From NCBI GenBank assembly GCA_016180525.1, contig JACPBB010000001.1:75320-139319 (forward strand): DNA of 64,000 bases. Direction: 5' to 3'. A program made the position numbers and the translations under genes. Positions 11,817-51,601 of the stretch are shown piece by piece. This DNA comes from Parcubacteria group bacterium (GTDB lineage Bacteria > Patescibacteriota > Minisyncoccia > Phycocordibacterales > UBA2135). The notes below the pieces were generated by a model that saw only the letters and a list, made by a program, of their open reading frames with translations, was not told the DNA's origin and did not search any database. How positions within the stretch are numbered: the first letter of the stretch is position 1; every line of letters starts with the position of its first letter.

Positions 11817-12243
11817 CCCCTATCTCTCCAAGCTGCTCCGCAAGCATGTCAGCTTCTTTTTCACTCTGAGCGCGATATTCAATCCAGTTCTTTTCATCCC
11901 AAATTTCAACACGATCATTAACTCCGATAAGCACGATAGTATTTTTCAGTTCCGCAAAATCTTTAAGAAAATCTGGAACAAGAATTCGTCCGAGAGAATC
12001 AATCTGTGTATCTATCGCTCCACCAAGCACAAAACGGTTAAATCTCCTGCTTGCCGATTTTCCGACGGAAAGTTCTTTAAGTCGCGTCAAAAAACGTTGG
12101 AAGTTTTTTGGAGAATAAATAAAGAGACATGTATCAAGCCCTTTTGTTATTACAATGTTCTTTCCAAGTTCTTTCCGAAATTTTGAAGGCAATGAAAGTC
12201 GTTTCTTTGCATCAATCGTGTGTTTATATTCTCCGATAAGCAT
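11809..12243 (-). CDS. mraZ: Transcriptional regulator MraZ
   Basis: Duplicated MraZ domain, MLIGEY...DAKKRLSLP motif. Confidence 0.9.
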   Translation of the reverse strand: MLIGEYKHTIDAKKRLSLPSKFRKELGKNIVITKGLDTCLFIYSPKNFQRFLTRLKELSVGKSASRRFNRFVLGGAIDTQIDSLGRILVPDFLKDFAELKNTIVLIGVNDRVEIWDEKNWIEYRAQSEKEADMLAEQLGEIGAL

Positions 12244-12398
12244 GGTAAGTCGCGGAGTACCAAGAGGCGCGGAGAGAAAGAAAGCTTTACAAAACTGTCA
12301 TAAAGTAAAGTATTTCAATCTACGCCTCTTGCTCCACTTAATTCATCAAACTAGCGCAGTTAAGTGAGAATATTTTTACATGGGTTCAGAATGTGTAA

Positions 12399-12450
12399 AT
12401 ACCACTTTATACCACGCAATATAAATTATATACCACTTTATTCCACAACA
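12399..12450 (-). promoter_or_regulatory. Candidate MraZ operator/Pmra: four GTGG(T/A) direct repeats at 10-bp phasing (minus strand) flanking a TATAAT-like box, ~160-200 bp upstream of mraZ
   Basis: minus-strand reading GTGGAATAAAGTGGTATATAATTTATATTGCGTGGTATAAAGTGGTATTT. Confidence 0.5.
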
Positions 12451-12615
12451 ACATGTTGAAAACTTTCAAAATAACTCCATAAAAAGAAGAAACGCTTCAA
12501 AATGTGTTGTTTTTAAAGCATTTTTTAAAAAATACCATCTCTGTGGATAAGTTGTGGGAAAACCAACTTTTTATTAAAAAAACCGCCCTAATTTGTAATT
12601 TAGAGCGATTTGTGA

Positions 12616-12825
12616 TCACCATGTACCAACCTCTCTATTCCCTGGAGGTATTAACGTAATAATCCCCTTTTCTCCCGGATCAATTTCCACAAGAGTATAA
12701 CCATTCGAGAATTCTTTTCCGTGTTCTTCGTCAATTAAACGCCGCGCCTCCATTTCATCTTCCGCCGTAACCAATACCACCTGTGAAACTCCATAAAAAT
12801 TCATCCCGAAATAAAACACATGCAT
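12616..12825 (-). CDS. Small hypothetical protein (69 aa)
   Basis: ORF only; mixed-charge protein-like composition. Confidence 0.3.
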   Translation of the reverse strand: MHVFYFGMNFYGVSQVVLVTAEDEMEARRLIDEEHGKEFSNGYTLVEIDPGEKGIITLIPPGNREVGTW

Positions 12826-12880
12826 ATTTTATCCCCTTCAGATATTTCTCACACTAGCTTAATGAAACACTGCTTTGAAG

Positions 12881-13486
12881 TCAAGGTTTATTTTTATATT
12901 TTTTCCAAAGGGACCTCCAGCCTTTTTTAAACACTGCCATAAGTATTTCATCTTCATATCGTCCGTTTTTATATATCTCCCGAACACAGCATCCCTCAAC
13001 GATAAATCCACATTTATGATAACAAGCCTGTCCGCGTTTATTGTTGCCGAGTACCGACAGTGTGATCTTCCGAAGATTAAGCGCGTTAAACGCGTAATCA
13101 AGAAGAAGCATGATCGCCTCCGTGCCAATTCCTTTATTCCAATATTTTTTCTCTCCAATCGCAATGCCGAGAACTCCGGTTCTGTCTTTCCAGTGTATCC
13201 TGTGAAGTCCCACTGTACCGAGAGAAACACCGCCAATAGTTTCTATTACAAATACAATATCTGTTTCTTTGTTTTTTTGTAAGCTCTCAAGCCACAGCTC
13301 TTCATCTCTTTCATACACAGGAAGATATCGGTTTAGATAACCGTTTATTTCCGGGTCATTAAACCATACCAAAAATTTTGGAATGTCTGCTTTTGTCGGC
13401 GGTCTAAGAATTATATTTTTTCCCGTCCGTATTGCGGGCCGCAACAATTTGGTTTCATTTGGCATGGGAACCTCCTTTTTTGCCAA
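12881..13486 (-). CDS. GNAT-family N-acetyltransferase (RimJ/RimL-like)
   Basis: GNAT motif A region (KGIGTEAI...) and overall acetyltransferase fold signature, 201 aa. Confidence 0.8.
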   Translation of the reverse strand: MAKKEVPMPNETKLLRPAIRTGKNIILRPPTKADIPKFLVWFNDPEINGYLNRYLPVYERDEELWLESLQKNKETDIVFVIETIGGVSLGTVGLHRIHWKDRTGVLGIAIGEKKYWNKGIGTEAIMLLLDYAFNALNLRKITLSVLGNNKRGQACYHKCGFIVEGCCVREIYKNGRYEDEILMAVFKKGWRSLWKKYKNKP

Positions 13487-13726
13487 AGAACAATGCTGAA
13501 TGAAAAACCTCGGCTTTCATTCAGCCGAGGTTTTTCTAAAAAATAGTTCAAAAATTTAAATAGAATTAAAACTACCACGGCTAAATAAAAGAATGTGTAT
13601 TTCTGCAGAAAGCCATACAGAAATACCCCCACGTGTTTGTGCGGTCATAAAATTATTTGTATTGTGGCAGTGTTTTTTATACATAACCCCAGATTACTCT
13701 GAAGAAAATTTTTGTCAATAAATTGA

Positions 13727-13775
13727 AAAACGGGCTCGGGGAATTGCTCCCTCGAGCCCGTATTAGTTTTTTTGT
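13727..13775. terminator. Strong bidirectional intrinsic terminator (CGGGCTCGGGG...CCCTCGAGCCCG) 3' of the helicase gene
   Basis: seen directly, T-runs on both strands. Confidence 0.65.
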
Positions 13776-13779
13776 TAGT

Positions 13780-16311
13780 TTACTTCGTAACTAAAGCTGT
13801 CATGCCACACCCAGAACAAGTAAGTGTGAGCACCTGTCCCAGCCTGCTGTAACCCTGAAATTGCTTTCTGGTCACATGAGCTACCACGCCGCATCCAACG
13901 CACTGAAACTCACGTGCTTTCACTGGAGTAAATACAACATTTTTTTTCTCTGCTGGTTTTTCTTCCTTTGGTTTTTGAGGGTAGACAATCTTCGGAGTTT
14001 CGGATATAGACGATGTTTTCATCTCTCCGCGAAATTCATAAGCAGCAAACGCTTTTCTTTCTTCATCTTCTGCTCCCAAAAATGAAAATAAAGGAAACTG
14101 CGGATCTGCTACCATGTCTCCTCCAAATGAAGAAGTGCGAATTTTACAGTAATATACTTTTCTTACAAGCGGATTTACGGCTGGCAGAGTTTCAAGTTGA
14201 TACCGAACACCATCACACACTGCTTCCATAGAAAAATGTCCGGGCCTAAAGACAAGTGGAACCCAACTATTTTTCTGCGCTTCGGCGATACAGTTCTCCT
14301 GAATCTTTCGTGCCTCTGCAACGGAAACATCTGACTCTCGAATCCCGACTTTTGTTTCCTGCTCTTCTCCTCGGTAATCATTGTAACGATAGAGAATCTC
14401 TTGCTGTACGCTGGCAATAGGATCCCCCTCAAAACATGAGACAATCCGTTGTAAGCCATAGCGGAAACGTGACGGTGCAAGTTCCGGAAGCCATGCGGCT
14501 TCCACGCTTGAAACAGTGCGCGCGAAGCGTTTCGTCGTCTCTACAATCTCGGAAGCAACCATCCATGTTGGACTGCCAAAGCCAAACACGGATGAGCCTG
14601 GGTGAATAAAGATTTCCTGTAAATCTCGCATCACTCCGCTATAAGCATGCCGTGAGCCGTGTCGGAACAAATTGTAAGCGAGACCTGCGGCCACTGATTT
14701 CATGACCACGTTCTTATCTTCTGATTCAGTGATCTCAACGCCACTTCTCTCCAAAATGGAGAGCAATTGCTCACGGATATTTTTCGCCTCCCAAAGTGAC
14801 TTAGAGTGTAGAAAATTTTTGAAACACCAATCTCTGTCAAATTCAGACTCTTCGTACGCCTTCCATGCGTTCAAAAATGTGAGCGCGTCTGATTTAGGAT
14901 TCTTGAATTGCGTATGTGCCCTGTCTGCTTCATACTCCTTATCTTTTGGACGAGGGAACACGGAGCGAACAGAGAAAAACGCCGCAATTGTTGCGATGTT
15001 TTTAACACATCCATGCTTTTTCGCCTCAAGAACCATTCGTGCTATTTTCGGGTCAAGCGGCAAACGGGCCATTTCCCGGCCCATGTCAGTAAGCCCTTTC
15101 TCCCCAGGCTTAATCGCGCCGAGAGCGATTAAAGTCTCATACGCTTCGTGGAATGCTTCGCTGTCAGGCGGATCAATAAAGTCAAAATCCGCTACATTTT
15201 CAATACCGATTGATTCCATCAAAAGCACCACACCCGCAAGACTAATTCGCCGGATTTCCGGCTCAGTAAACAGGGGGCGTCTGTTGAAATTCTTCTCGGT
15301 GTACATCCTGAAACAAAAGCCTGGACCAGTTCTTCCCGCACGCCCCGTCCGCTGATTACATCCCGCCTGAGAGTGATGTACGACATCCAGACTCTCTATG
15401 CCGGATTCAGGATGGAAATGCTTCTGCTTCACGAATCCCGAATCAATAACATAGACGATTCCGTCAATTGTGATAGAAGTCTCCGCGATGTTTGTCGCAA
15501 CTACAACTTTTCGTTTTCCGGGAAAAGAGTGGAATATTTTTTGCTGATCTTCTGGAGAAAGTCCCGCGTGAACGGGTAGGATCATAAGATTTGAGACCAC
15601 AGACTGCTTCAGCAACTCTACCACCTCTCCAATATCCTTCGCCCCGGTCATAAAGACCAGCACATCTCCTTCTGCTTCAGTTCTGTGAATGTTCAAGATC
15701 TTTTCAGAGATCGCGCATGCGATAGTTTCTTCAGAATAATCCCTGTCTGCCCAGACGATATCAACCGGATACATCCTGCCGGATACTTCAATGACTGGAG
15801 CGCCACCAAAGTACTGAGAGAATTTTTCCGCATCAATCGTTGCCGAAGAAACGACAACCGTAAGGTCGTCACGTCGCTTAAGTAGATTTTTCAGAAGCCC
15901 GAGAATGAAGTCAATATTGCAGCTGCGCTCATGCGCTTCGTCCACCATAATGACGGAGTACTTGCGTAAGTCAGGGTCAACCTGAAACTCTCGCAAAAGA
16001 ATTCCATCGGTCATAAACTTGATGGGGGTCTCACCGTCCGTTCGGTCATCAAACCGAACCTGATAGCCGACCACCTTACCAAGTTCCGAACCCATCTCTT
16101 CTGCAACGAAGCGGGCAACCGAAGTTGCCGCAATTCGTCGCGGTTCGGTGATGCCAATGACACCACCCTCGCCGATACCTGATTCGTAGAGAAAACGAGG
16201 AAGCAGAGTTGTTTTGCCTGACCCCGTCTCTCCCACTACAATCACGACACTATTCTCGCGCGCCGCATTCACAATTTCTTCACGGTGAGCAAAAATTGGA
16301 AGTTCTAACAT
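13780..16311 (-). CDS. ATP-dependent DEAH-box RNA helicase, HrpA/HrpB family, with C-terminal Cys4 zinc ribbon
   Basis: GETGSGKTT Walker A, DEAHER, helicase C and HA2-like regions; C-terminal CVGCG...CSGCG. Confidence 0.85.
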   Translation of the reverse strand: MLELPIFAHREEIVNAARENSVVIVVGETGSGKTTLLPRFLYESGIGEGGVIGITEPRRIAATSVARFVAEEMGSELGKVVGYQVRFDDRTDGETPIKFMTDGILLREFQVDPDLRKYSVIMVDEAHERSCNIDFILGLLKNLLKRRDDLTVVVSSATIDAEKFSQYFGGAPVIEVSGRMYPVDIVWADRDYSEETIACAISEKILNIHRTEAEGDVLVFMTGAKDIGEVVELLKQSVVSNLMILPVHAGLSPEDQQKIFHSFPGKRKVVVATNIAETSITIDGIVYVIDSGFVKQKHFHPESGIESLDVVHHSQAGCNQRTGRAGRTGPGFCFRMYTEKNFNRRPLFTEPEIRRISLAGVVLLMESIGIENVADFDFIDPPDSEAFHEAYETLIALGAIKPGEKGLTDMGREMARLPLDPKIARMVLEAKKHGCVKNIATIAAFFSVRSVFPRPKDKEYEADRAHTQFKNPKSDALTFLNAWKAYEESEFDRDWCFKNFLHSKSLWEAKNIREQLLSILERSGVEITESEDKNVVMKSVAAGLAYNLFRHGSRHAYSGVMRDLQEIFIHPGSSVFGFGSPTWMVASEIVETTKRFARTVSSVEAAWLPELAPSRFRYGLQRIVSCFEGDPIASVQQEILYRYNDYRGEEQETKVGIRESDVSVAEARKIQENCIAEAQKNSWVPLVFRPGHFSMEAVCDGVRYQLETLPAVNPLVRKVYYCKIRTSSFGGDMVADPQFPLFSFLGAEDEERKAFAAYEFRGEMKTSSISETPKIVYPQKPKEEKPAEKKNVVFTPVKAREFQCVGCGVVAHVTRKQFQGYSRLGQVLTLTCSGCGMTALVTK

Positions 16312-41116: not shown

Positions 41117-41197
41117 AATCTCTGCGACTACCTAAAAAACATTCCAATATTCTGCAGAATATTGGAATGTTTTTAGTATATTATATTCTGTAATTAT

Positions 41198-41647: not shown

Positions 41648-41705
41648 GTCCCATACTAAGCTTTGCTCTAGTATCGGAGTCAGCGGCCACGCACCAAATT
41701 TTCCC

Positions 41706-41777
41706 TCCGCGGTAGCTCAGCGGTAGAGCGGCTCCCTGTTAAGGAGATGGTCGCAGGTTCGATCCCTGCCCGCGGAG
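41706..41777 (+). tRNA. tRNA-Asn (anticodon GTT)
   Basis: Cloverleaf read manually: acceptor TCCGCGG/CCGCGGA, D-arm GCTC-AGCGGTA-GAGC, anticodon loop CTGTTAA, T-arm GCAGG-TTCGATC-CCTGC, discriminator G; CCA not encoded. Confidence 0.8.
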
Positions 41778-41835
41778 GAAAGATCTGGTGTGGAGTGTAA
41801 AGAACGTCGTGGCTCCCCGCCTAGAAAGTTTGAAA

Positions 41836-41855
41836 AAATCACACCACAAATTTTA
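41836..41855. repeat. Left copy of perfect 20-bp direct repeat AAATCACACCACAAATTTTA (right copy at 48946-48965)
   Basis: seen directly; flanks a ~7.1 kb accessory block next to tRNA-Asn. Confidence 0.7.
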
Positions 41856-41863
41856 GCGCGTAA

Positions 41864-44638
41864 TTGTACCTGTCCCCATTTTTAAATTTGGCAGAGAAAT
41901 TCGTAAAAATATCATTAAAGGTACAATTAGAGACAAGAGGCAAAATTAGAACCAAAAAATATTGCATGATTTATTGCAACATAGAAGATCTAAGAAACGA
42001 AAGCGACGTAGAGCAAAAGCTCTGCGTTCCTCTTATTACGACTTCTTCAGAAAAAGGTTTAGGCTACTCAAAAAGTGATTATAGTTCAAAAAAGACTCTT
42101 AAAAAAATGGTCATTGGCAAAAGCGGGGACAAAAAATCTTATCGCCCAGATTTCATTACATTTATTCAAGGAACGCCAGTATTGGTAATTGAAGCAAAAA
42201 GCCCAGAGGAAGACCTGACAGAGGGATATAGAGAAGCGAGATTGTATGCGAACGAGTTAAATGCCATATACCCCTCCGGAATAAATCCATGTACGAAGGT
42301 TCTGGTGACAAATGGTAAAGAAATTTGGTACGGCAAAAATGATGAAAGAGAAGTCTTCGGTAAATTAACTTTTAAAGATATCAACATTTCCAACAAGAAA
42401 TTTACTGATCTGTTAGATTTTTGCAGCAAAAGTAAGATTAATAATGAATTAGAGACTGTTATAAAAAAAACGCGCAGTAAAAAAAATTTTAGTAAACCAA
42501 CTGCAATACTTGGAGGAAAAGCGAGTAGGGAGGAGGAACTTGGAAGCAATACTTTTGGTTCTGCTTTAATGTATGAATATCAGAGAATATTCAACCCTGA
42601 AACAAGAGAAGACAGGGTAGAAATTGTCAGAAATGCTTATATACCTTCTACGGGAATTGAAAAACACAAGAGCCCAATTCGAAAGCTAATTCTCGCTACG
42701 CTGCCACCCAGCTTAAAAAACACAACGAAAATCGAAAATACATCAAAACCACGAGAACTTTTGAGCAAGCTCCTGTCCCCCCAAAGGCTATCCAATCAGC
42801 TAATTTTATTAATTGGTAATGTTGGATCAGGAAAAACTACCTTTATTGATTATTTGAGAGAAATCGTATTGCCCACAGAGATAAAAAATAAGACAACGTG
42901 GGTATATATTGATTTAAACTTCGCACCCAACACGAAAGATGAAATTTATCCCTGGGTCCAAGAAAAAATAGTTGCTCAATTGAAAGATACACACCAAGAA
43001 CTTAACCTCGATCACATTGATGAATTGAAAAAGCTATATGCTGGTGATATAGAAGCATTTGAAATTGGTGAAGGAAGTTTACTAAGAGATGACCCAAAAG
43101 AATATAATAAATTGCTTGCCAAACTGATCCAAGAAGCAAAGGCAGACAAAAATAAAACCGCTAAAGCATACACAAGATATTTATGCGGCGATAGAGGAAA
43201 AACATTTATACTCATACTTGATAATGGAGATAAGAGAAACAAAGAAGATCAACTGCTGATGTTCGAAGTGGCCAGATGGGCAAAAGAAGAGTTTCGAGCT
43301 TTAATATTTTTGTCACTACGAGATGTCACATACGATTTACACAAAACGGAGCCTCCTCTTGATACTGTTATCAAGGATATGGCCTTTAGAATTGATCCAC
43401 CAGAATTAAGCCAAGTACTTTACAGAAGAGTCGCATACGCAATTCAGAACTCACCGTCAAGGGGAATCAAAATGACCTTAAATAATATGGTTGTGAATAT
43501 CTCAAAAAAAGAACAAGACATGTATTTAAAATGTATTCTAGAATCGCTTTATAATTCAAGTCCGTTCTCAAGAAAATTGATAAATGGGCTGGCTGGAAGG
43601 GATCTGCGAAGAGGGATAGAGATATTTATAACGTTTTGTAGAAGTGGACATATTTCTAATAAAGAAATATTGAAAATGCGTGTCTCAAATGGTTCCCACC
43701 CCCTTGAAGAACACATCGTCTTGAGGGCTTTGTTAAGGGGTAGTAAGCGATTTTATTCAGGGAGAGACTCTTATATTAAAAACTTATTTGAAAGCTACCC
43801 GGACGAAGAAGTAATCCCCGATCCATTTGTGAGGATGTCAATATTGAAATGGTTTCAAGAAAAAAAAGCGATCCGAGGTCCTAGTGATGCTAAGGGCTTC
43901 CATCCTATCGCTGATCTAGAAACAGATCTCCAATTGATTGGACATAATGAGAAAAGAGTACGAAGTGAAGTAGTAAACTTGCTAAGAGAGCGCTGCCTCA
44001 TAAGTGAAGCGCAAACAGAAGAAATTCTTGCGGAGACAGATCCAAAAGAAATAGAAAAAGGAATTGAGGATAATGATCTGATAAAAATAGCGCCCGCTGG
44101 CACAATTCACTTAGACCTGCTTCTGAATATTGTTTATTTGTCTGCCTGTGCCGAGGATATTTGGTATTGGAGCCATCAGACGGCAACAACTATAAAGGAA
44201 CGACTAACAAGAGAACAGGGGGTTGGACATTATTCGTTATCGACCAACTTAAAAAATTCATCGGACCTAATTGATTATTTAATTGATTATCAAAAAAAAT
44301 ACTACCCCAACAATGAGACTATCATTGACAAAGACATTCCACGCATAGACCTACAAACAATTAAAAAATTTGTCTCTGAGAGAGAACTAAAGGTACAAAA
44401 CAAGAACTCTGACTTGAAGAGGCGTTACCCTTTTAATAAAGAGCTTGTATGTTCTATTGAGAGGATTATCCTCAGGGCTGGAATCAGAGTACTCGTAGAG
44501 CCGGGCGTCTACGGCTTCATCATGAAAAGAGACATAAGGCAAGCAGAAAGTTTCCAGCAAGGTAAAAAAGTCAAAGTGCGAGTCAATGGTCTAGATGAAG
44601 ATCGTAGTACGCTTATTTTAAGTCTAATAGAAAAATGA
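41864..44638 (+). CDS. Large hypothetical protein: N-terminal PD-(D/E)xK nuclease (HsdR-N/Mrr-like) motif fused to a P-loop NTPase
   Basis: YRPDFITFIQGTPVLVIEAK (PD...ExK); LLIGNVGSGKTTFIDYL Walker A; FILILDNGD Walker B; ~500 aa further of unknown function. Confidence 0.6.
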   Translation: MYLSPFLNLAEKFVKISLKVQLETRGKIRTKKYCMIYCNIEDLRNESDVEQKLCVPLITTSSEKGLGYSKSDYSSKKTLKKMVIGKSGDKKSYRPDFITFIQGTPVLVIEAKSPEEDLTEGYREARLYANELNAIYPSGINPCTKVLVTNGKEIWYGKNDEREVFGKLTFKDINISNKKFTDLLDFCSKSKINNELETVIKKTRSKKNFSKPTAILGGKASREEELGSNTFGSALMYEYQRIFNPETREDRVEIVRNAYIPSTGIEKHKSPIRKLILATLPPSLKNTTKIENTSKPRELLSKLLSPQRLSNQLILLIGNVGSGKTTFIDYLREIVLPTEIKNKTTWVYIDLNFAPNTKDEIYPWVQEKIVAQLKDTHQELNLDHIDELKKLYAGDIEAFEIGEGSLLRDDPKEYNKLLAKLIQEAKADKNKTAKAYTRYLCGDRGKTFILILDNGDKRNKEDQLLMFEVARWAKEEFRALIFLSLRDVTYDLHKTEPPLDTVIKDMAFRIDPPELSQVLYRRVAYAIQNSPSRGIKMTLNNMVVNISKKEQDMYLKCILESLYNSSPFSRKLINGLAGRDLRRGIEIFITFCRSGHISNKEILKMRVSNGSHPLEEHIVLRALLRGSKRFYSGRDSYIKNLFESYPDEEVIPDPFVRMSILKWFQEKKAIRGPSDAKGFHPIADLETDLQLIGHNEKRVRSEVVNLLRERCLISEAQTEEILAETDPKEIEKGIEDNDLIKIAPAGTIHLDLLLNIVYLSACAEDIWYWSHQTATTIKERLTREQGVGHYSLSTNLKNSSDLIDYLIDYQKKYYPNNETIIDKDIPRIDLQTIKKFVSERELKVQNKNSDLKRRYPFNKELVCSIERIILRAGIRVLVEPGVYGFIMKRDIRQAESFQQGKKVKVRVNGLDEDRSTLILSLIEK

Positions 44639-44889
44639 GGGGTTTAGAAAGGTTTCATAGGTGACTCCGAATGAACTAAGATTATTAATTGTCTAACTTG
44701 CTCCAGCGACACGCTCGGATAAGAAAACACCCCCTCCCACCTTGTCGTCCGTAGCGTGTCCAGCCACGCGAGTACTTTTTTGAGCCTTGATTTTCAATGC
44801 TCTTTTTTGATACTCCAAGTTGGACATCAGAACTTTTCTTGGTTATATTTCCCATAGAAAGATTTTATTACAAAAAAGGGGTGGTATCA

Positions 44890-45512
44890 TGAACAACCTG
44901 CGACTACAAGGAAAGATTGTCGTTGTCGCTTACTCTGGAGGGCCTGATGCAACAGCACTTACACATCGCTTGAAAATGTCTGGGGCGGTGGTTCATCCGT
45001 TCTACATTAATTACCGCAAACAACACAATCACCCTAAGACTCTTAACGACTTAAGGGCGGCAAATGCATCTGCAGAAATCCTCGGTATCCAGAAAGTCGA
45101 AACAGTTCGAGCCCCACTTGGAGAACGAAGCAAGGGTGAGCGTAATGGGTTCTTCGTTGAAGTTCTCTCACCCATTGCGAGAGAACTTGGAAGTTCCCAC
45201 ATTGGACTTGGCACCATATGGGATGGAACAGACGATGATTTGAGTGTTGAATCCTTGTCTCTTCGTGGCTGTGAGCACAACTGTGAAGTAGTCACGTGGG
45301 ATAGTTTCGGTATACACGAAAAGGCAGATCAGTTTCTGGGGGTAGACACTAAGACGCGCGAAGCGCTGTTTCAGACCACATCATGCCAACGGTGGTGGAT
45401 ATGGAAAACCGAGTGTGGTGGATGCTACAGCTGCAAGGCACGTCACGGAGCTTTTCTCAAGGCCTTTGGGTACGACCCCACGGTTTATTACAAAGCTGTA
45501 TCCTCACTATAA
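44890..45512 (+). CDS. QueC-like PP-loop ATP pyrophosphatase (7-cyano-7-deazaguanine synthase family) paralogue
   Basis: VVVAYSGGPDAT PP-loop (SGGxD), C-terminal CGGCYSCKAR zinc motif as in QueC; AAGGGGTGG RBS before ATG 44890. Confidence 0.55.
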
Positions 45513-45601
45513 TTCTTTTCTCAAAAGTCGCTTCATTATTGAGTGACTTTTTTGTTACGTAAATCCAAGTAATTGTAAATCCCGTTCAACATTTACCCAA
45601 T

Positions 45602-45661
45602 CAAAAGTTCTCCGCCTCGCTCTTACTCGTCGAGACGGGTGAACTCGTCCACAATGGGGAG
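45602..45661. repeat. Copy 1 of ~60-bp direct repeat CAAAAGTTCTCCGCCTCGCTCTTACTCGTC(G/A)AGACGG...CTCGTCCACAATG(G/T)GGAG (copy 2 at 46089-46148)
   Basis: seen directly, ~90% identical. Confidence 0.65.
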
Positions 45662-45733
45662 TAACATTGACAAAGTAATAGTATTGTGCTATTTTTTGTA
45701 CAGTTTTCAAAATAATTAGAGAGGAAAAAATTA

Positions 45734-45937: not shown

Positions 45938-46088
45938 GTTTGTAATATTTTTATAACCAACCGCCCAAGGAAAACCGTCCTTGCGGCGGTTTTTTACATA
46001 AACCCTGCCTGCCAGTAGGCAGGCAGCCCCCCTATTTCAATTTTAATTTGTTTCCACCCCGCCTTGCCTGATGCAAGTCGAGGCAGGT

Positions 46089-46148
46089 CAAAAGTTCTCC
46101 GCCTCGCTCTTACTCGTCAAGACGGATAAACTCGTCCACAATGTGGAG
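46089..46148. repeat. Copy 2 of the ~60-bp direct repeat, upstream of TspO gene
   Basis: seen directly. Confidence 0.65.
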
Positions 46149-46244
46149 CAAGCAATTTTTCAATTGTGTTTGCAGTAGAGCGCATTTCACATCTGATACA
46201 CTTTTGTTATGTATCTGAAGCGTGCTTTTTGGTAAAATTGGGTT

Positions 46245-46755: not shown

Positions 46756-47268
46756 ATGAGAAAAAAGACAGTAAAAGTAAGTGACAAGATCCAGAAAAAC
46801 TATCAATATGAGCTTACCGAACCGGCTGGCAGGAATTTTCATGCTAGTTTTAAGCCCGAGCTCACTCCCAAACAAATGCTTACCTTGGGCGTTTTCGGCG
46901 GCAAGTACATGACCGACTGCAAAAAAGAATTTCCCAAGGGCTGGTTTACGCGCGCCAAACTTTCGCCCGAGCATCACGACGATACGCTGAATTATTTTCA
47001 TAAACACGCGAGCCAACCGCTTAAGGTGTGGGTTAAAAAGGGATGGATCAATAAAAAGCATGATCCAAGAGGATGGTTTCAGTGGTATTGCCGTTACTAC
47101 ATGGGCCGGCGACTTCCCGGCGAAGACGAACGGCAGATCAAACGCTGGAAAGCCATTCGGCGGCACATTGCGCAGGTCAAAAAGAATTGCAGAAAGAGAG
47201 ATTTAACCTGCCGTCCGACGCAAAGACAGGCGGTACTTCACTGGGCCTACGACAGCCGGAAAATATAA
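46756..47268 (+). CDS. Hypothetical protein (170 aa), basic, W-rich
   Basis: ORF 4 bp after tspO stop; no assignable motif. Confidence 0.5.
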   Translation: MRKKTVKVSDKIQKNYQYELTEPAGRNFHASFKPELTPKQMLTLGVFGGKYMTDCKKEFPKGWFTRAKLSPEHHDDTLNYFHKHASQPLKVWVKKGWINKKHDPRGWFQWYCRYYMGRRLPGEDERQIKRWKAIRRHIAQVKKNCRKRDLTCRPTQRQAVLHWAYDSRKI

Positions 47269-48385: not shown

Positions 48386-48805
48386 TTGGGGTGGGATATG
48401 AGAGTTGGCCTGATTGCTTGTTCAAAAACCAAACGAGTTGGCAGGTATAAGGCGAGAGAATTGTATTGTTCTCCTTTATTTCGTTTTGCGTGGCAATACA
48501 CAAGTCAGCATTTTGATAGGGTGTTTATCCTTTCTGCTAAATATGGTCTACTTGACCCAGAAAGACGCGTCTGCGACTACGACACTACGTTGAATACTAT
48601 GACAATTGATGCGCGGAAACGATGGTCTGTACAAGTAGCGAAACAAATTCTGCAAAAAACAAACACAAGTGACGAGCTTCACCTCTTTTGCGGTAAAAAA
48701 TATAGAGAATTTGTTGTGGCATTGCTACGAGGGCAAAAATGTTTTTATCCTCTCCACGGTTTAGGTATCGGGCAGCAGCTGCAATGGTATAAAGAGAGAT
48801 TATAG
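48386..48805 (+). CDS. Hypothetical protein (139 aa; conserved-looking IACSKTK...ILSAKYGLL pattern)
   Basis: ORF only. Confidence 0.45.
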   Translation: MGWDMRVGLIACSKTKRVGRYKARELYCSPLFRFAWQYTSQHFDRVFILSAKYGLLDPERRVCDYDTTLNTMTIDARKRWSVQVAKQILQKTNTSDELHLFCGKKYREFVVALLRGQKCFYPLHGLGIGQQLQWYKERL

Positions 48806-48945
48806 GCCGCCGACATAATTAATCGGCGGTTTTCATTTTACAATCGCAAGCAACGAGTTAGTCTGTTGCAACGAAACGTTAGGGCGCGGAAACATCTCCT
48901 CCCGTTTTATCTTCCATAACATGTCCAAGCCCCACGCGAGCCAAC

Positions 48946-48965
48946 AAATCACACCACAAATTTTA
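48946..48965. repeat. Right copy of the 20-bp direct repeat AAATCACACCACAAATTTTA
   Basis: seen directly. Confidence 0.7.
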
Positions 48966-49047
48966 TTAAAAAAATGTACTTATCCCTATTTCTATTTCCC
49001 GATTCCCCAAGTAAGTAGTTTAAAAAAACCAGCCTTTTCCAAAGTCT

Positions 49048-51100: not shown

Positions 51101-51601
51101 ATGACAATCGCAAAAGTATATTTAATCGGATCATTAAGAAACCCTGAAGTCCCGCAGATAGCAAATAAAATACGGGAGCTCGGGTTTGAAGTTTTTGATG
51201 ACTGGCACGCCGCCGGACCGGAAGCGGATGATAAGTGGAGAGATTATGAAAAATCAAGAGGCCGCACGTATAAAGAGGCACTTGATGGGTTGGCGGCAAA
51301 CCATGTATATCATTTTGACTTAAAACATCTGGATGAATCCCATATCACCATTTTGCATTTACCCGCGGGAAAATCGGGCCATCTTGAACTTGGGTACGCA
51401 ATCGGAAAAGGCAAGAAGGGCTACATTCTCCTTGATAGCGCCGAGCGATGGGATGTGATGTACAAGTTTGCTCATGGAGTATTCCATAATTTTGATGAAC
51501 TGTTGGAAGAATTAAATCGGATAAAAAGCGAATTTGTACAACCTGAAAAAATAAATAATGAGTCCGGTATTCATCAGGACGATTATTCACTTCAATTTTA
51601 A
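51101..51601 (+). CDS. Nucleoside 2-deoxyribosyltransferase-like protein
   Basis: KVYLIGSL...AGKSGHLELGYAIGKGK pattern typical of the NDT/flavodoxin-like fold. Confidence 0.65.
   Translation: MTIAKVYLIGSLRNPEVPQIANKIRELGFEVFDDWHAAGPEADDKWRDYEKSRGRTYKEALDGLAANHVYHFDLKHLDESHITILHLPAGKSGHLELGYAIGKGKKGYILLDSAERWDVMYKFAHGVFHNFDELLEELNRIKSEFVQPEKINNESGIHQDDYSLQF

What the first reader, a model, noticed from the sequence alone, without database searches (positions are those of the whole stretch)
41864..44638. 924-aa PD-(D/E)xK nuclease + P-loop NTPase fusion: candidate novel anti-phage/defence protein
The N-terminus carries a textbook restriction-endonuclease-fold motif, YRPDFITFIQGTPVLVIEAK (PD...ExK, as in HsdR-N/Mrr catalytic domains). 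About 200 aa later there is a canonical Walker A (GNVGSGKTT) and Walker B (FILILDNGD). A further ~500 aa has no motif I can name. Nuclease-ATPase fusions of this kind are the hallmark of many single-gene defence systems. This one is the first gene of a repeat-bounded island.
Basis: partly seen in the sequence, partly recalled or inferred. Interest (0 to 1): 0.75.

Follow-up and report, generated by a model that had tools for sequence, protein, structure and literature searches.

The report
Uncharacterised nuclease–ATPase–S1 candidate defence protein
This gene encodes one large protein that joins a restriction-enzyme-type DNA-cutting head, an ATP-binding switch of the ORC/Cdc6 kind and an RNA/single-strand-binding tail; it belongs to a rare, widely scattered family carried by prophages, plasmids, conjugative elements and defence islands, so it is most likely an undescribed anti-phage/anti-plasmid immunity protein, although nobody has tested it.

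The parts
41705..41778 (+). tRNA-Asn (GTT), immediately upstream; likely insertion hotspot
   Evidence: ARAGORN; Rfam tRNA 66.6 bits. In 4-5 of 60 homologous loci a tRNA lies within about 1 kb, but of different identities (Pro, Arg, Leu). This fits an integration hotspot rather than a specific partner.
41833..41884 (.). Direct repeat, copy 1 (exact 20-mer at 41836-41855)
   Evidence: the repeat finder family D2, 77% over 52 nt. The 20-mer occurs only twice in the window, 0.02 expected. Alignment.
41888..41915 (+). Sigma-70-like promoter match (TTGGCA-16-TATCAT) upstream of the ATG
   Evidence: Consensus scan, 10 of 12. The number of such sites in the region is not above the shuffle expectation, so this is suggestive only.
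41966..44638 (+).
   Evidence: ORF. 100% identical to MBI2108673.1, 890 aa. N-termini of 24 homologues align at this Met. AF2 model mean pLDDT 85.7, pTM 0.82.
41966..42775 (+). HsdR-N-type PD-(D/E)xK nuclease region (aa 1-270; fold core about aa 1-170). Motifs: NESDVEQK 41996-42019; PD...ExK 42140-42199; ExxxY 42233-42247
42776..43660 (+). ORC/Cdc6-STAND-like AAA+ ATPase: nucleotide-binding domain plus lid (aa 271-565). Walker A 42806-42841; Walker B (D-N-x-D) 43205-43237; LRD 43301-43330; FRIDPP 43385-43402; GRDxR 43586-43621; SGH 43634-43654
43661..44425 (+). Winged-helix and helical region (aa 566-820), more variable than the core
44426..44635 (+). C-terminal S1-like OB-fold domain (aa 821-890)
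44754..44779 (+). Terminator-like hairpin plus T-run about 115 nt after the stop codon
   Evidence: Consensus scan; suggestive only.
48943..48994 (.). Direct repeat, copy 2 (exact 20-mer at 48946-48965), lying between two convergent genes
   Evidence: None of the scanned ORFs between the copies matches an integrase family, and no empty site was recovered.

Best explanation
The gene encodes a stand-alone, horizontally mobile anti-phage/anti-plasmid immunity protein of an undescribed family.

Shown here:
- The domain order is an HsdR-type PD-(D/E)xK nuclease, an ORC/Cdc6-STAND-like AAA+ ATPase with lid, winged-helix and helical domains, and a C-terminal S1 OB-fold.
- Both catalytic centres are under strict conservation.
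- There is no partner gene.
- The family is rare, patchily distributed and carried on mobile elements and defence islands.

Inferred mechanism:
1. The resting protein is auto-inhibited.
2. The variable C-terminal module (S1, or RRM or CSD in relatives), helped by the winged helices, binds a single-stranded RNA or DNA species that appears during infection or plasmid entry.
3. This allows the ATP-bound AAA+ core to assemble into an oligomer or filament. The universal Asn in place of the Walker B catalytic Glu suggests an ATP-binding switch with slow turnover rather than a translocating motor.
4. Assembly brings the HsdR-type nuclease heads together. They then cut DNA, either the invader's or, as abortive infection, the cell's own.
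For: Architecture:
- Pfam HSDR_N is above cut-off.
- The AF2 model has pLDDT 85.7.
- The family profile hits ribosomal protein S1 at 3.5e-24.

Selection:
- D62, E76, K78, K290, D419-N420-x-D422 and R548 are about 100% conserved in 201 full-length relatives down to 25% identity.

Modular C-terminus:
- It is S1, 2xRRM, CSD or absent in different relatives.
- It is the least conserved part of the protein.

Stand-alone gene:
- The commonest neighbour family is found in only 8 of 86 loci, at varying positions.

Mobility and defence context:
- ICE cargo in P. syringae.
- At the end of a P2-like prophage in Spartinivicinus.
- Inside a prophage in Lentisphaerota.
- In an integrative element with Fic, IS110 and mer genes.
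- On plasmids.
- In 16 IMG/VR viral contigs.
- A distant E. coli relative is present in 8 of 5,426 genomes. It occupies the same moron slot of lambdoid prophages at two different integration sites.
- Immediate neighbours include SoFic x5, type I R-M, pAgo+SIR2, HerA, RT, PADLOC candidate families and 5 integrases. In total 214 PADLOC models were hit by 140 near neighbours, against 54 by 140 ORFs at least 6.5 kb away in the same loci.

Rarity:
- 178 of about 185,600 species genomes, across more than 12 phyla.
- 172 representatives of the ATPase core at E<=1e-30 among 1.84 billion.

In the window:
- Lowest GC of the 64 kb, and placed next to a tRNA.
Against: - There is no experimental evidence for any family member.
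- No PADLOC v2 model matches. That fits novelty, but it also means there is no independent support.
- tblastn found nothing in 50,697 GenBank phage records.
- The near/far defence enrichment counts models hit, not proteins, so it is coarse.
- Carriage on mobile elements is equally expected for selfish element functions.
- The S1 domain of this particular protein is divergent: it is sub-threshold in Pfam and lacks the usual aromatic YG-F motif.
- A whole second tier of relatives lacks any detectable C-terminal binding domain. The S1 may therefore tune the core machine rather than trigger it.
- Walker B D-N could mean a slow or non-hydrolysing ATPase.
- The nucleic-acid substrate (DNA or RNA) cannot be read from sequence.
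Confidence: 0.55

Rival explanations
1. The protein serves the mobile element itself rather than host immunity. It could be an ORC/Cdc6-like initiator or loader with a nicking or cutting head, used for element replication, maintenance or addiction, or as a weapon against competing elements.
For: - The ATPase is most similar to the replication initiators Cdc6/Orc1, and winged helices follow it.
- Members sit inside ICEs, prophages and plasmids.
- The distant relative on an A. baumannii plasmid lies directly after the replication initiation gene.
Against: - The gene has no fixed position or partner within any one element type.
- It occurs in unrelated element classes, and in chromosomal loci next to R-M, pAgo and HerA genes.
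- In prophages it occupies cargo or moron slots, not replication modules.
- One E. coli copy is interrupted by IS1 inside a prophage, so it is dispensable there.
Confidence: 0.15
2. The protein is an RNA-directed restriction or decay enzyme. The S1/RRM/CSD module brings the PD-(D/E)xK domain to invader or host RNA, and that domain cleaves RNA rather than DNA. This would resemble the RNA targeting predicted for CoCoNuT McrBC-type systems.
For: - Three different RNA-type binding modules are interchanged at the C-terminus.
- CSD-bearing AAA+/PD-(D/E)xK systems have been predicted to target RNA (PMC11090510).
Against: - The nuclease head is specifically of the HsdR, type IIG and type IIL DNA-cleaving kind by profile and by fold, including the helix motif after ExK.
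- S1, CSD and RRM domains also bind ssDNA.
- Second-tier relatives work without such a module.
Confidence: 0.15
3. The protein is a housekeeping or stress-related nucleic-acid-processing factor, for example in repair or RNA quality control, as database names such as 'ribosomal protein S1' or 'S1 RNA-binding domain-containing protein' suggest.
For: The S1 domain is real, and some records carry such names.
Against: - The family is present in only about 0.1% of species genomes, with a patchy spread over more than 12 phyla.
- There is only one S1 domain, at the end of an 890-aa nuclease-ATPase.
- Contexts are mobile elements.
- In the window its composition is foreign.
- No NCBIfam equivalog matches.
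Confidence: 0.05
4. The protein is an orphan or degenerate R subunit of a type I restriction-modification system, which is how NCBI names most members ('type I restriction endonuclease').
For: The HSDR_N domain is above the Pfam cut-off, and it is structurally most similar to an HsdR fragment.
Against: - There is no SF2 helicase motor: no ResIII or Helicase_C hit, and the ATPase is an AAA+ of Cdc6 type.
- TIGR00348 hsdR scores 20.6 bits against a cut-off of 284.55.
- No HsdM or HsdS partner is conserved in 86 loci, and none is present in the window.
Confidence: 0.02

Closest known systems
HsdR, the R subunit of type I restriction-modification enzymes (Pfam HSDR_N; PDB 3h1t)
   Different: The SF2 translocase motor of HsdR is replaced by an ORC/Cdc6-like AAA+ ATPase with winged helices and an S1 domain. 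There is no methyltransferase or specificity partner.
ORC/Cdc6-clade AAA+ ATPases of defence systems (BrxC of BREX, DUF499 ATPases; PMC12839542)
   Same: An ORC/Cdc6-STAND-type ATPase core is followed by winged-helix domains. In DUF499 proteins there is also a variable C-terminal RRM-fold domain. Both are predicted to assemble on nucleic acid rather than translocate.
   Different: Those are components of multi-gene systems and carry no nuclease. This protein is a single gene with a fused HsdR-type nuclease. There is no Pfam DUF499 hit, and the Walker B is D-N-x-D.
STAND/NLR-like single-protein sensors (AVAST/Avs, bacterial NACHT proteins)
   Same: The logic is similar: one polypeptide with an N-terminal nuclease effector, a central nucleotide-dependent switch and a C-terminal recognition region. 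There is fold similarity to NB-ARC, CED-4 and Apaf-1, and the proteins sit in prophages and defence islands.
   Different: There is no TPR, LRR or WD40 repeat sensor; a small S1/CSD/RRM module takes its place. The effector is constant across the superfamily rather than swapped. The ATPase retains an ORC/Cdc6-like GRDxR lid motif. No Avs or NLR PADLOC model matches.
McrBC-type and CoCoNuT type IV restriction systems (PMC11090510)
   Same: An AAA+ NTPase is combined with a PD-(D/E)xK nuclease and cold-shock/OB-fold domains that suggest recognition of RNA or single-stranded nucleic acid.
   Different: McrB is a GTPase of a different AAA+ clade, and the nuclease sits on a separate McrC subunit with coiled coils. 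Here everything is in one chain with a Cdc6-like ATPase.
RdrA of the RADAR system (PDB 8hr8)
   Same: A large defence ATPase with a related AAA+/STAND-like core that forms ring assemblies. It is recovered by Foldseek (E 4.7e-4).
   Different: RdrA works with the deaminase RdrB and has no nuclease or S1 domain. The similarity is confined to the ATPase fold.

Membership tests
Type I restriction enzyme R subunit (HsdR) | N-terminal PD-(D/E)xK nuclease domain (HSDR_N) | tested here: met
Type I restriction enzyme R subunit (HsdR) | SF2 (DEAD/ResIII plus Helicase_C) translocase motor, and a score above the hsdR family model cut-off | tested here: not met
   No ResIII or Helicase_C hit. TIGR00348 scores 20.6 against a cut-off of 284.55. 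The ATPase fold is AAA+ Cdc6-like.
Type I restriction enzyme R subunit (HsdR) | Genetic linkage to HsdM and HsdS | tested here: not met
   No conserved neighbour in 86 loci. N6_Mtase appears in only 2 of 140 near neighbours. No methyltransferase or specificity-subunit family among the scanned window neighbours, apart from one weak PADLOC DruM cytosine-methylase hit (E 8.4e-4) for 46756-47268.
[quoted passage not shown] | AAA+ alpha/beta core plus helical lid, followed by a winged-helix domain, with overall fold similarity | tested here: met
[quoted passage not shown] | Canonical Walker B hhhhDE, sensor 1, arginine finger and sensor 2 (GDxR in the lid) | tested here: inconclusive
   Walker B is D-N-x-D in 201 of 201 relatives, with no Glu. 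R452 (LRD), R475 (FRIDPP; close relatives only) and R548 (GRDxR) are conserved. Their roles were assigned from sequence position only, because no residue-level superposition was available.
STAND NTPases (Avs/AVAST, NACHT, NB-ARC) | Match to STAND family models (NACHT, NB-ARC, AAA_16, nSTAND; PADLOC Avs/NLR) | tested here: not met
   AAA_16 scores 22.2 against GA 32.6, with no NACHT or NB-ARC hit. No Avs or NLR PADLOC hit. Only fold-level similarity to NRC1, CED-4 and Apaf-1.
STAND NTPases (Avs/AVAST, NACHT, NB-ARC) | C-terminal repeat sensor (TPR, LRR or WD40) and swappable N-terminal effectors | tested here: not met
   The model shows winged helices, helices and an S1 domain, with no repeat array. 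The N-terminal domain matches an HsdR-type nuclease family (HSDR_N or HSDR_N_2; some hits weak or sub-threshold) in nearly all relatives scanned; one of ten second-tier proteins gave no hit.
S1 RNA-binding domain (PF00575) | OB-fold of the S1 type, recognised by profile and by structure | tested here: met
Any known or candidate defence system in PADLOC-DB v2.0.0 | Significant match to a system protein model | tested here: not met
   The best hit is mad2 at 1.1e-5, covering the nuclease head only. Five further relatives and variants have no meaningful hit. Newer DefenseFinder or PADLOC releases could not be tested.
BrxC / DUF499 ATPases | Match to the DUF499/BrxC models and membership of a BREX-type multi-gene locus | tested here: not met
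   No DUF499 hit in Pfam; no PglZ/BrxX-type conserved neighbours.

The most novel reading that the evidence does not exclude
This is the founding member, seen here in a candidate-phyla-radiation bacterium, of a pan-bacterial class of single-chain immune receptors that sense nucleic acid directly. An interchangeable S1, CSD or RRM module would recognise an infection-specific single-stranded RNA or DNA. It would then trigger ATP-locked assembly of an ORC/Cdc6-like switch, which has a natural Walker B Glu-to-Asn 'trap' residue, and so unleash an HsdR-type DNase. That would make it a nucleic-acid-sensing counterpart of the protein-sensing Avs/NLR systems, built from a restriction-enzyme head on a replication-initiator engine.
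Probability: 0.3. Interest if true: 0.8.

Novelty: new variant of a known kind. Interest (0 to 1): 0.62.

Why it matters
If confirmed, this would add a compact one-gene system to the bacterial immune repertoire, built from a combination of parts not seen before: a type I restriction nuclease head, a replication-initiator-type ATP switch and RNA-binding tails. It would offer a tractable model for how single-stranded nucleic acid could license a DNase. It would also explain a set of mis-named genes ('type I restriction endonuclease', 'ribosomal protein S1') in more than 12 phyla. Its presence in a Parcubacteria genome matters too, because little is known (my own knowledge, not tested here) about how these small-genome, episymbiotic bacteria resist phages. 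Relatives in E. coli prophages, Klebsiella IncF plasmids and a P. syringae ICE make experiments straightforward.

Tried and rejected
- KAP, ABC, AbiEii and TsaE-type ATPase assignments. Only P-loop-local, sub-threshold hits were found, so these were rejected in favour of ORC/Cdc6-STAND-like on fold evidence.
- QatABCD-like system with the downstream QueC-like gene. That gene (44820-45512) scores 18.8 against a cut-off of 150.3 for true QueC. It gives only a weak PADLOC QueC hit and is not a conserved neighbour in other loci. Rejected as a partner.
- MADS membership. The weak mad2 hit (1.1e-5) covers only the nuclease head. Rejected.
- Empty-site test for the island. Scanning metagenome contigs for the 20-nt repeat returned two unrelated chance hits. 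No repeat flanks the gene alone (local alignment no better than shuffles). This test was uninformative.
- Specific tRNA partnership (S1 tail plus adjacent tRNA-Asn). Other loci have different tRNAs or none. Rejected.
- Cultured-phage records (tblastn, no match) and viral predicted structures (only domain-level S1 or AAA+ hits) gave no phage-encoded full-length homologue outside prophage or UViG contigs.
- The AlphaFold-database fold libraries were unavailable.
- Literature searches by architecture terms and by six accessions, plus WP_001349602, found no description.
Full report
**Observation**

The + strand carries an open frame from 41864 to 44638. All three quoted motifs are present at 42140-42199 (YRPDF...IEAK), 42806-42841 (Walker A) and 43205-43237 (Walker B). 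The TTG at 41864 is an over-extension. The identical deposited protein is MBI2108673.1, a 'hypothetical protein' of a Parcubacteria group MAG, and it is 890 aa long. All aligned homologues start at the ATG at 41966. A promoter-like site (41888-41915) and a terminator-like hairpin (44754-44779) bracket the gene as a single unit, though these are consensus matches only. A tRNA-Asn lies at 41705-41778.

**Anatomy**

- Pfam places aa 55-129 (890-aa numbering; 89-163 of the scanned 924-aa translation) in HSDR_N (41 bits against a cut-off of 25.1). It gives only sub-threshold P-loop hits (AAA_22, AAA_16) and a near-threshold S1 hit at the C-terminus.
- An AlphaFold2 model built on 24 homologues is confident (pLDDT 85.7, pTM 0.82).
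- The best Foldseek hit is Cdc6 (1fnn), followed by ORC, NB-ARC/CED-4/Apaf-1, MalT and RdrA.
- A profile of the family matches ribosomal protein S1 at E=3.5e-24.

The chain therefore reads: HsdR-type PD-(D/E)xK nuclease (aa 1 to about 270), AAA+ nucleotide-binding domain plus lid (271-565), winged-helix and helical region (566-820), and S1 OB-fold (821-890).

**Conservation**

In 24 diverse homologues the following are invariant:
- the N-terminal E-S-D-V-E-Q-K helix;
- P61-D62 and E76-x-K78;
- Y94;
- the Walker A G-x-V-G-x-G-K;
- L-D419-N420-x-D422;
- R452, and R548 in a G-R-D-x-R motif that resembles the Cdc6/ORC sensor-2 'GDxR' (my reading of the sequence);
- the S-G-H562 motif.

Across 201 full-length relatives, including 34 at under 33% identity, D62, E76, K78, K290, D419, N420, D422 and R548 remain about 100% conserved. 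The Asn at the position of the canonical Walker B catalytic Glu is universal. From established AAA+ enzymology, this argues for a nucleotide-binding switch with slow turnover rather than a motor. That is an inference.

Conservation declines along the protein. Mean pairwise identity is 0.50 in the ATPase and 0.31-0.33 in the C-terminal helical region and S1.

**Modularity**

- One subclade of about 985-998 aa replaces the S1 domain with two RRMs.
- Distant plasmid relatives at 20-28% identity keep an HsdR-type nuclease (HSDR_N above cut-off in one, sub-threshold HSDR_N_2 in the others) and the ATPase. Two of the three (Rhodobacteraceae, A. baumannii) end in cold-shock domains.
- A second tier of about 800-830-aa proteins keeps the nuclease (HSDR_N detected in nine of ten scanned) and the ATPase but, with one exception, has no detectable C-terminal binding domain.

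The nuclease-ATPase pair is therefore the constant machine, and the single-strand-binding tail is an interchangeable accessory.

**Distribution and context**

- The family is rare and scattered. 178 of about 185,600 species-representative genomes encode a relative, across Nitrospirota, Acidobacteriota, Deinococcota, Bacteroidota, Bacillota, Melainabacteria, Planctomycetota, Verrucomicrobiota, Spirochaetota and alpha-, beta-, gamma- and delta-proteobacteria.
- The ATPase-WH core alone finds 172 (E<=1e-30), 633 (<=1e-10) and 955 (<=1e-3) representatives among 1.84 billion.
- Clustering all neighbours within five genes in 86 loci shows no conserved partner. The commonest family is in 8 loci, at varying positions.
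- Individual contexts are mobile:
  - Cargo inside a P. syringae ICE, between UvrD/DUF4177 and the RAQPRD conjugation genes.
  - The end of a P2-like prophage after gpD in Spartinivicinus.
  - Inside a Lentisphaerota prophage next to the terminase.
  - An integrative element with Fic, IS110 and mer genes.
  - Plasmids of Desulfocapsa, Paraburkholderia and Phaeobacter.
  - 16 IMG/VR viral contigs.
- A second-tier relative in E. coli (WP_001349602.1) occurs in 8 of 5,426 complete genomes.
  - In the two loci I examined it sits in the same slot, between the replication genes and hokD/RusA/Q.
  - Those two lambdoid prophages are integrated at different chromosomal sites.
  - In one genome the copy is split by IS1.
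- Among 140 ORFs at positions +/-1-2 from the gene, the census is as follows:
  - Pfam finds 5 integrases, 5 Fic, ResIII, N6_Mtase, RVT and resolvase.
  - PADLOC at E<=1e-10 finds SoFic x5, PDC-S24 x4, PDC-S04 x3, type I REases, a pAgo with its SIR2 partner, HerA, RT and others. In all, 214 models were hit.
- A control of 140 ORFs at least 6.5 kb away in the same loci hits 54 models, mostly from one or two methyltransferases. The measure is coarse, because it counts models rather than proteins, but it points to local enrichment.

**The window locus**

- The gene has the lowest GC of any 2.7-kb stretch in the 64 kb: 0.370 against 0.426 +/- 0.024.
- A direct repeat (41833-41884 and 48943-48994, with an exact 20-mer core) is non-random and encloses 7.1 kb.
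- That segment has no integrase among the ORFs scanned. It contains a QueC-like PP-loop gene, TspO, two unknown genes and a DUF6884 gene. Apart from the focal gene its GC is 0.451.
- No empty site was found.
- I therefore regard the focal gene as a foreign insertion at a tRNA hotspot, and the 'island' as unproven.
- tRNAs of other identities lie within about 1 kb in 4-5 of 60 other loci.

**What is known**

- No PADLOC v2.0.0 model and no NCBIfam model covers the family.
- Database names are generic or wrong: 'type I restriction endonuclease', 'ribosomal protein S1', 'S1 RNA-binding domain-containing protein'.
- Full-text searches by architecture and by seven accessions found no description.
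- Useful comparators:
  - ORC/Cdc6-clade defence ATPases with winged helices and RRM-fold tails (BrxC/DUF499; PMC12839542).
  - CSD-bearing McrBC relatives predicted to target RNA (CoCoNuTs; PMC11090510).
- The protein fails the membership tests for HsdR (no SF2 motor, no HsdM/S), for STAND/Avs models, for BrxC/DUF499 and for McrBC.

**Interpretation**

The most economical reading is a stand-alone, mobile immunity protein. The architecture, the conservation, the absence of a partner gene and the mobile and defence context are shown. That it defends, and how, are inferred.

I propose that the C-terminal S1/RRM/CSD module, with the winged helices, binds an infection-associated single-stranded nucleic acid. 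This would permit ATP-dependent assembly of the AAA+ core. The assembled nuclease heads would then cleave DNA.

I give about 0.65 to 'defence or anti-mobile-element function' and about 0.35 to this specific mechanism. The stated confidence of 0.55 is a compromise between the two.

The rivals are a selfish element function (0.15), RNA-directed cleavage (0.15), housekeeping (0.05) and an orphan type I R subunit (0.02).

**Verdict**

This is a real, well-defined and so far undescribed family. It is a new variant of the known kind 'single-gene nuclease-NTPase defence protein', with an unusual domain combination and an interchangeable RNA/ssDNA-binding tail. It is moderately to highly interesting and easy to test, because relatives exist in E. 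coli, Klebsiella and Pseudomonas.

Noticed in passing
window 45601-45664 and 46088-46151: A 64-nt direct repeat pair (92% identical; the 24-nt core is exact, occurs only at these two places in the window, and has 0 expected by chance). It lies in the intergenic space between the QueC-like gene and TspO. The minus-strand RNA folds are modestly more stable than shuffles (z -2.2 and -2.6). No Rfam family matches. It could be a small regulatory or mobile element.
   Followed up: partly
window 48386-48805 (+): A 139-aa DUF6884 protein (Pfam 9e-42) matches the PADLOC candidate defence family PDC-M57A (8e-36) and weakly resembles the N-terminus of DpdC. This is a second possible defence-related gene in the same 7-kb segment.
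   Followed up: partly
window 44820-45512 (+): A QueC-like PP-loop ATPase lies directly downstream. It is far below the cut-off for true QueC (18.8 against 150.3 bits) and gives a weak PADLOC QueC hit. It is not a conserved neighbour of the family elsewhere. It may act with the DUF6884/DpdC-like gene in 7-deazaguanine chemistry.
   Followed up: partly
window 41692-41712 / 41770-41790: Sequences flanking the tRNA-Asn are 86% complementary over 21 nt, which extends the acceptor stem into leader and trailer (pair I11).
   Followed up: no
window 41135-41174: A perfect 40-nt palindrome (two 20-nt arms with no spacer) sits between two minus-strand ORFs upstream of the tRNA (pair I4). It may be an operator or a bidirectional terminator.
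   Followed up: no
L004 8953-9933 (Spartinivicinus ruber prophage end): A 326-aa SDH/ClpP-like protease gene lies between the P2-type gpD and the family member, in the cargo position of the prophage. It is possibly another accessory or defence gene.
   Followed up: no
L114 and L115 (E. coli lambdoid prophages), match at 12001-14505: The distant 834-aa relative WP_001349602.1 occupies the same slot (after DUF977, before hokD) in prophages integrated at the potC/potD and yccA sites. In strain H7 it is interrupted by IS1. This makes a convenient E. coli entry point for experiments.
   Followed up: partly
window 51101-51601 (+): A 166-aa ORF has a weak nucleoside 2-deoxyribosyltransferase-like hit (Pfam 0.0026, below cut-off), just outside the repeat-bounded segment.
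   Followed up: no
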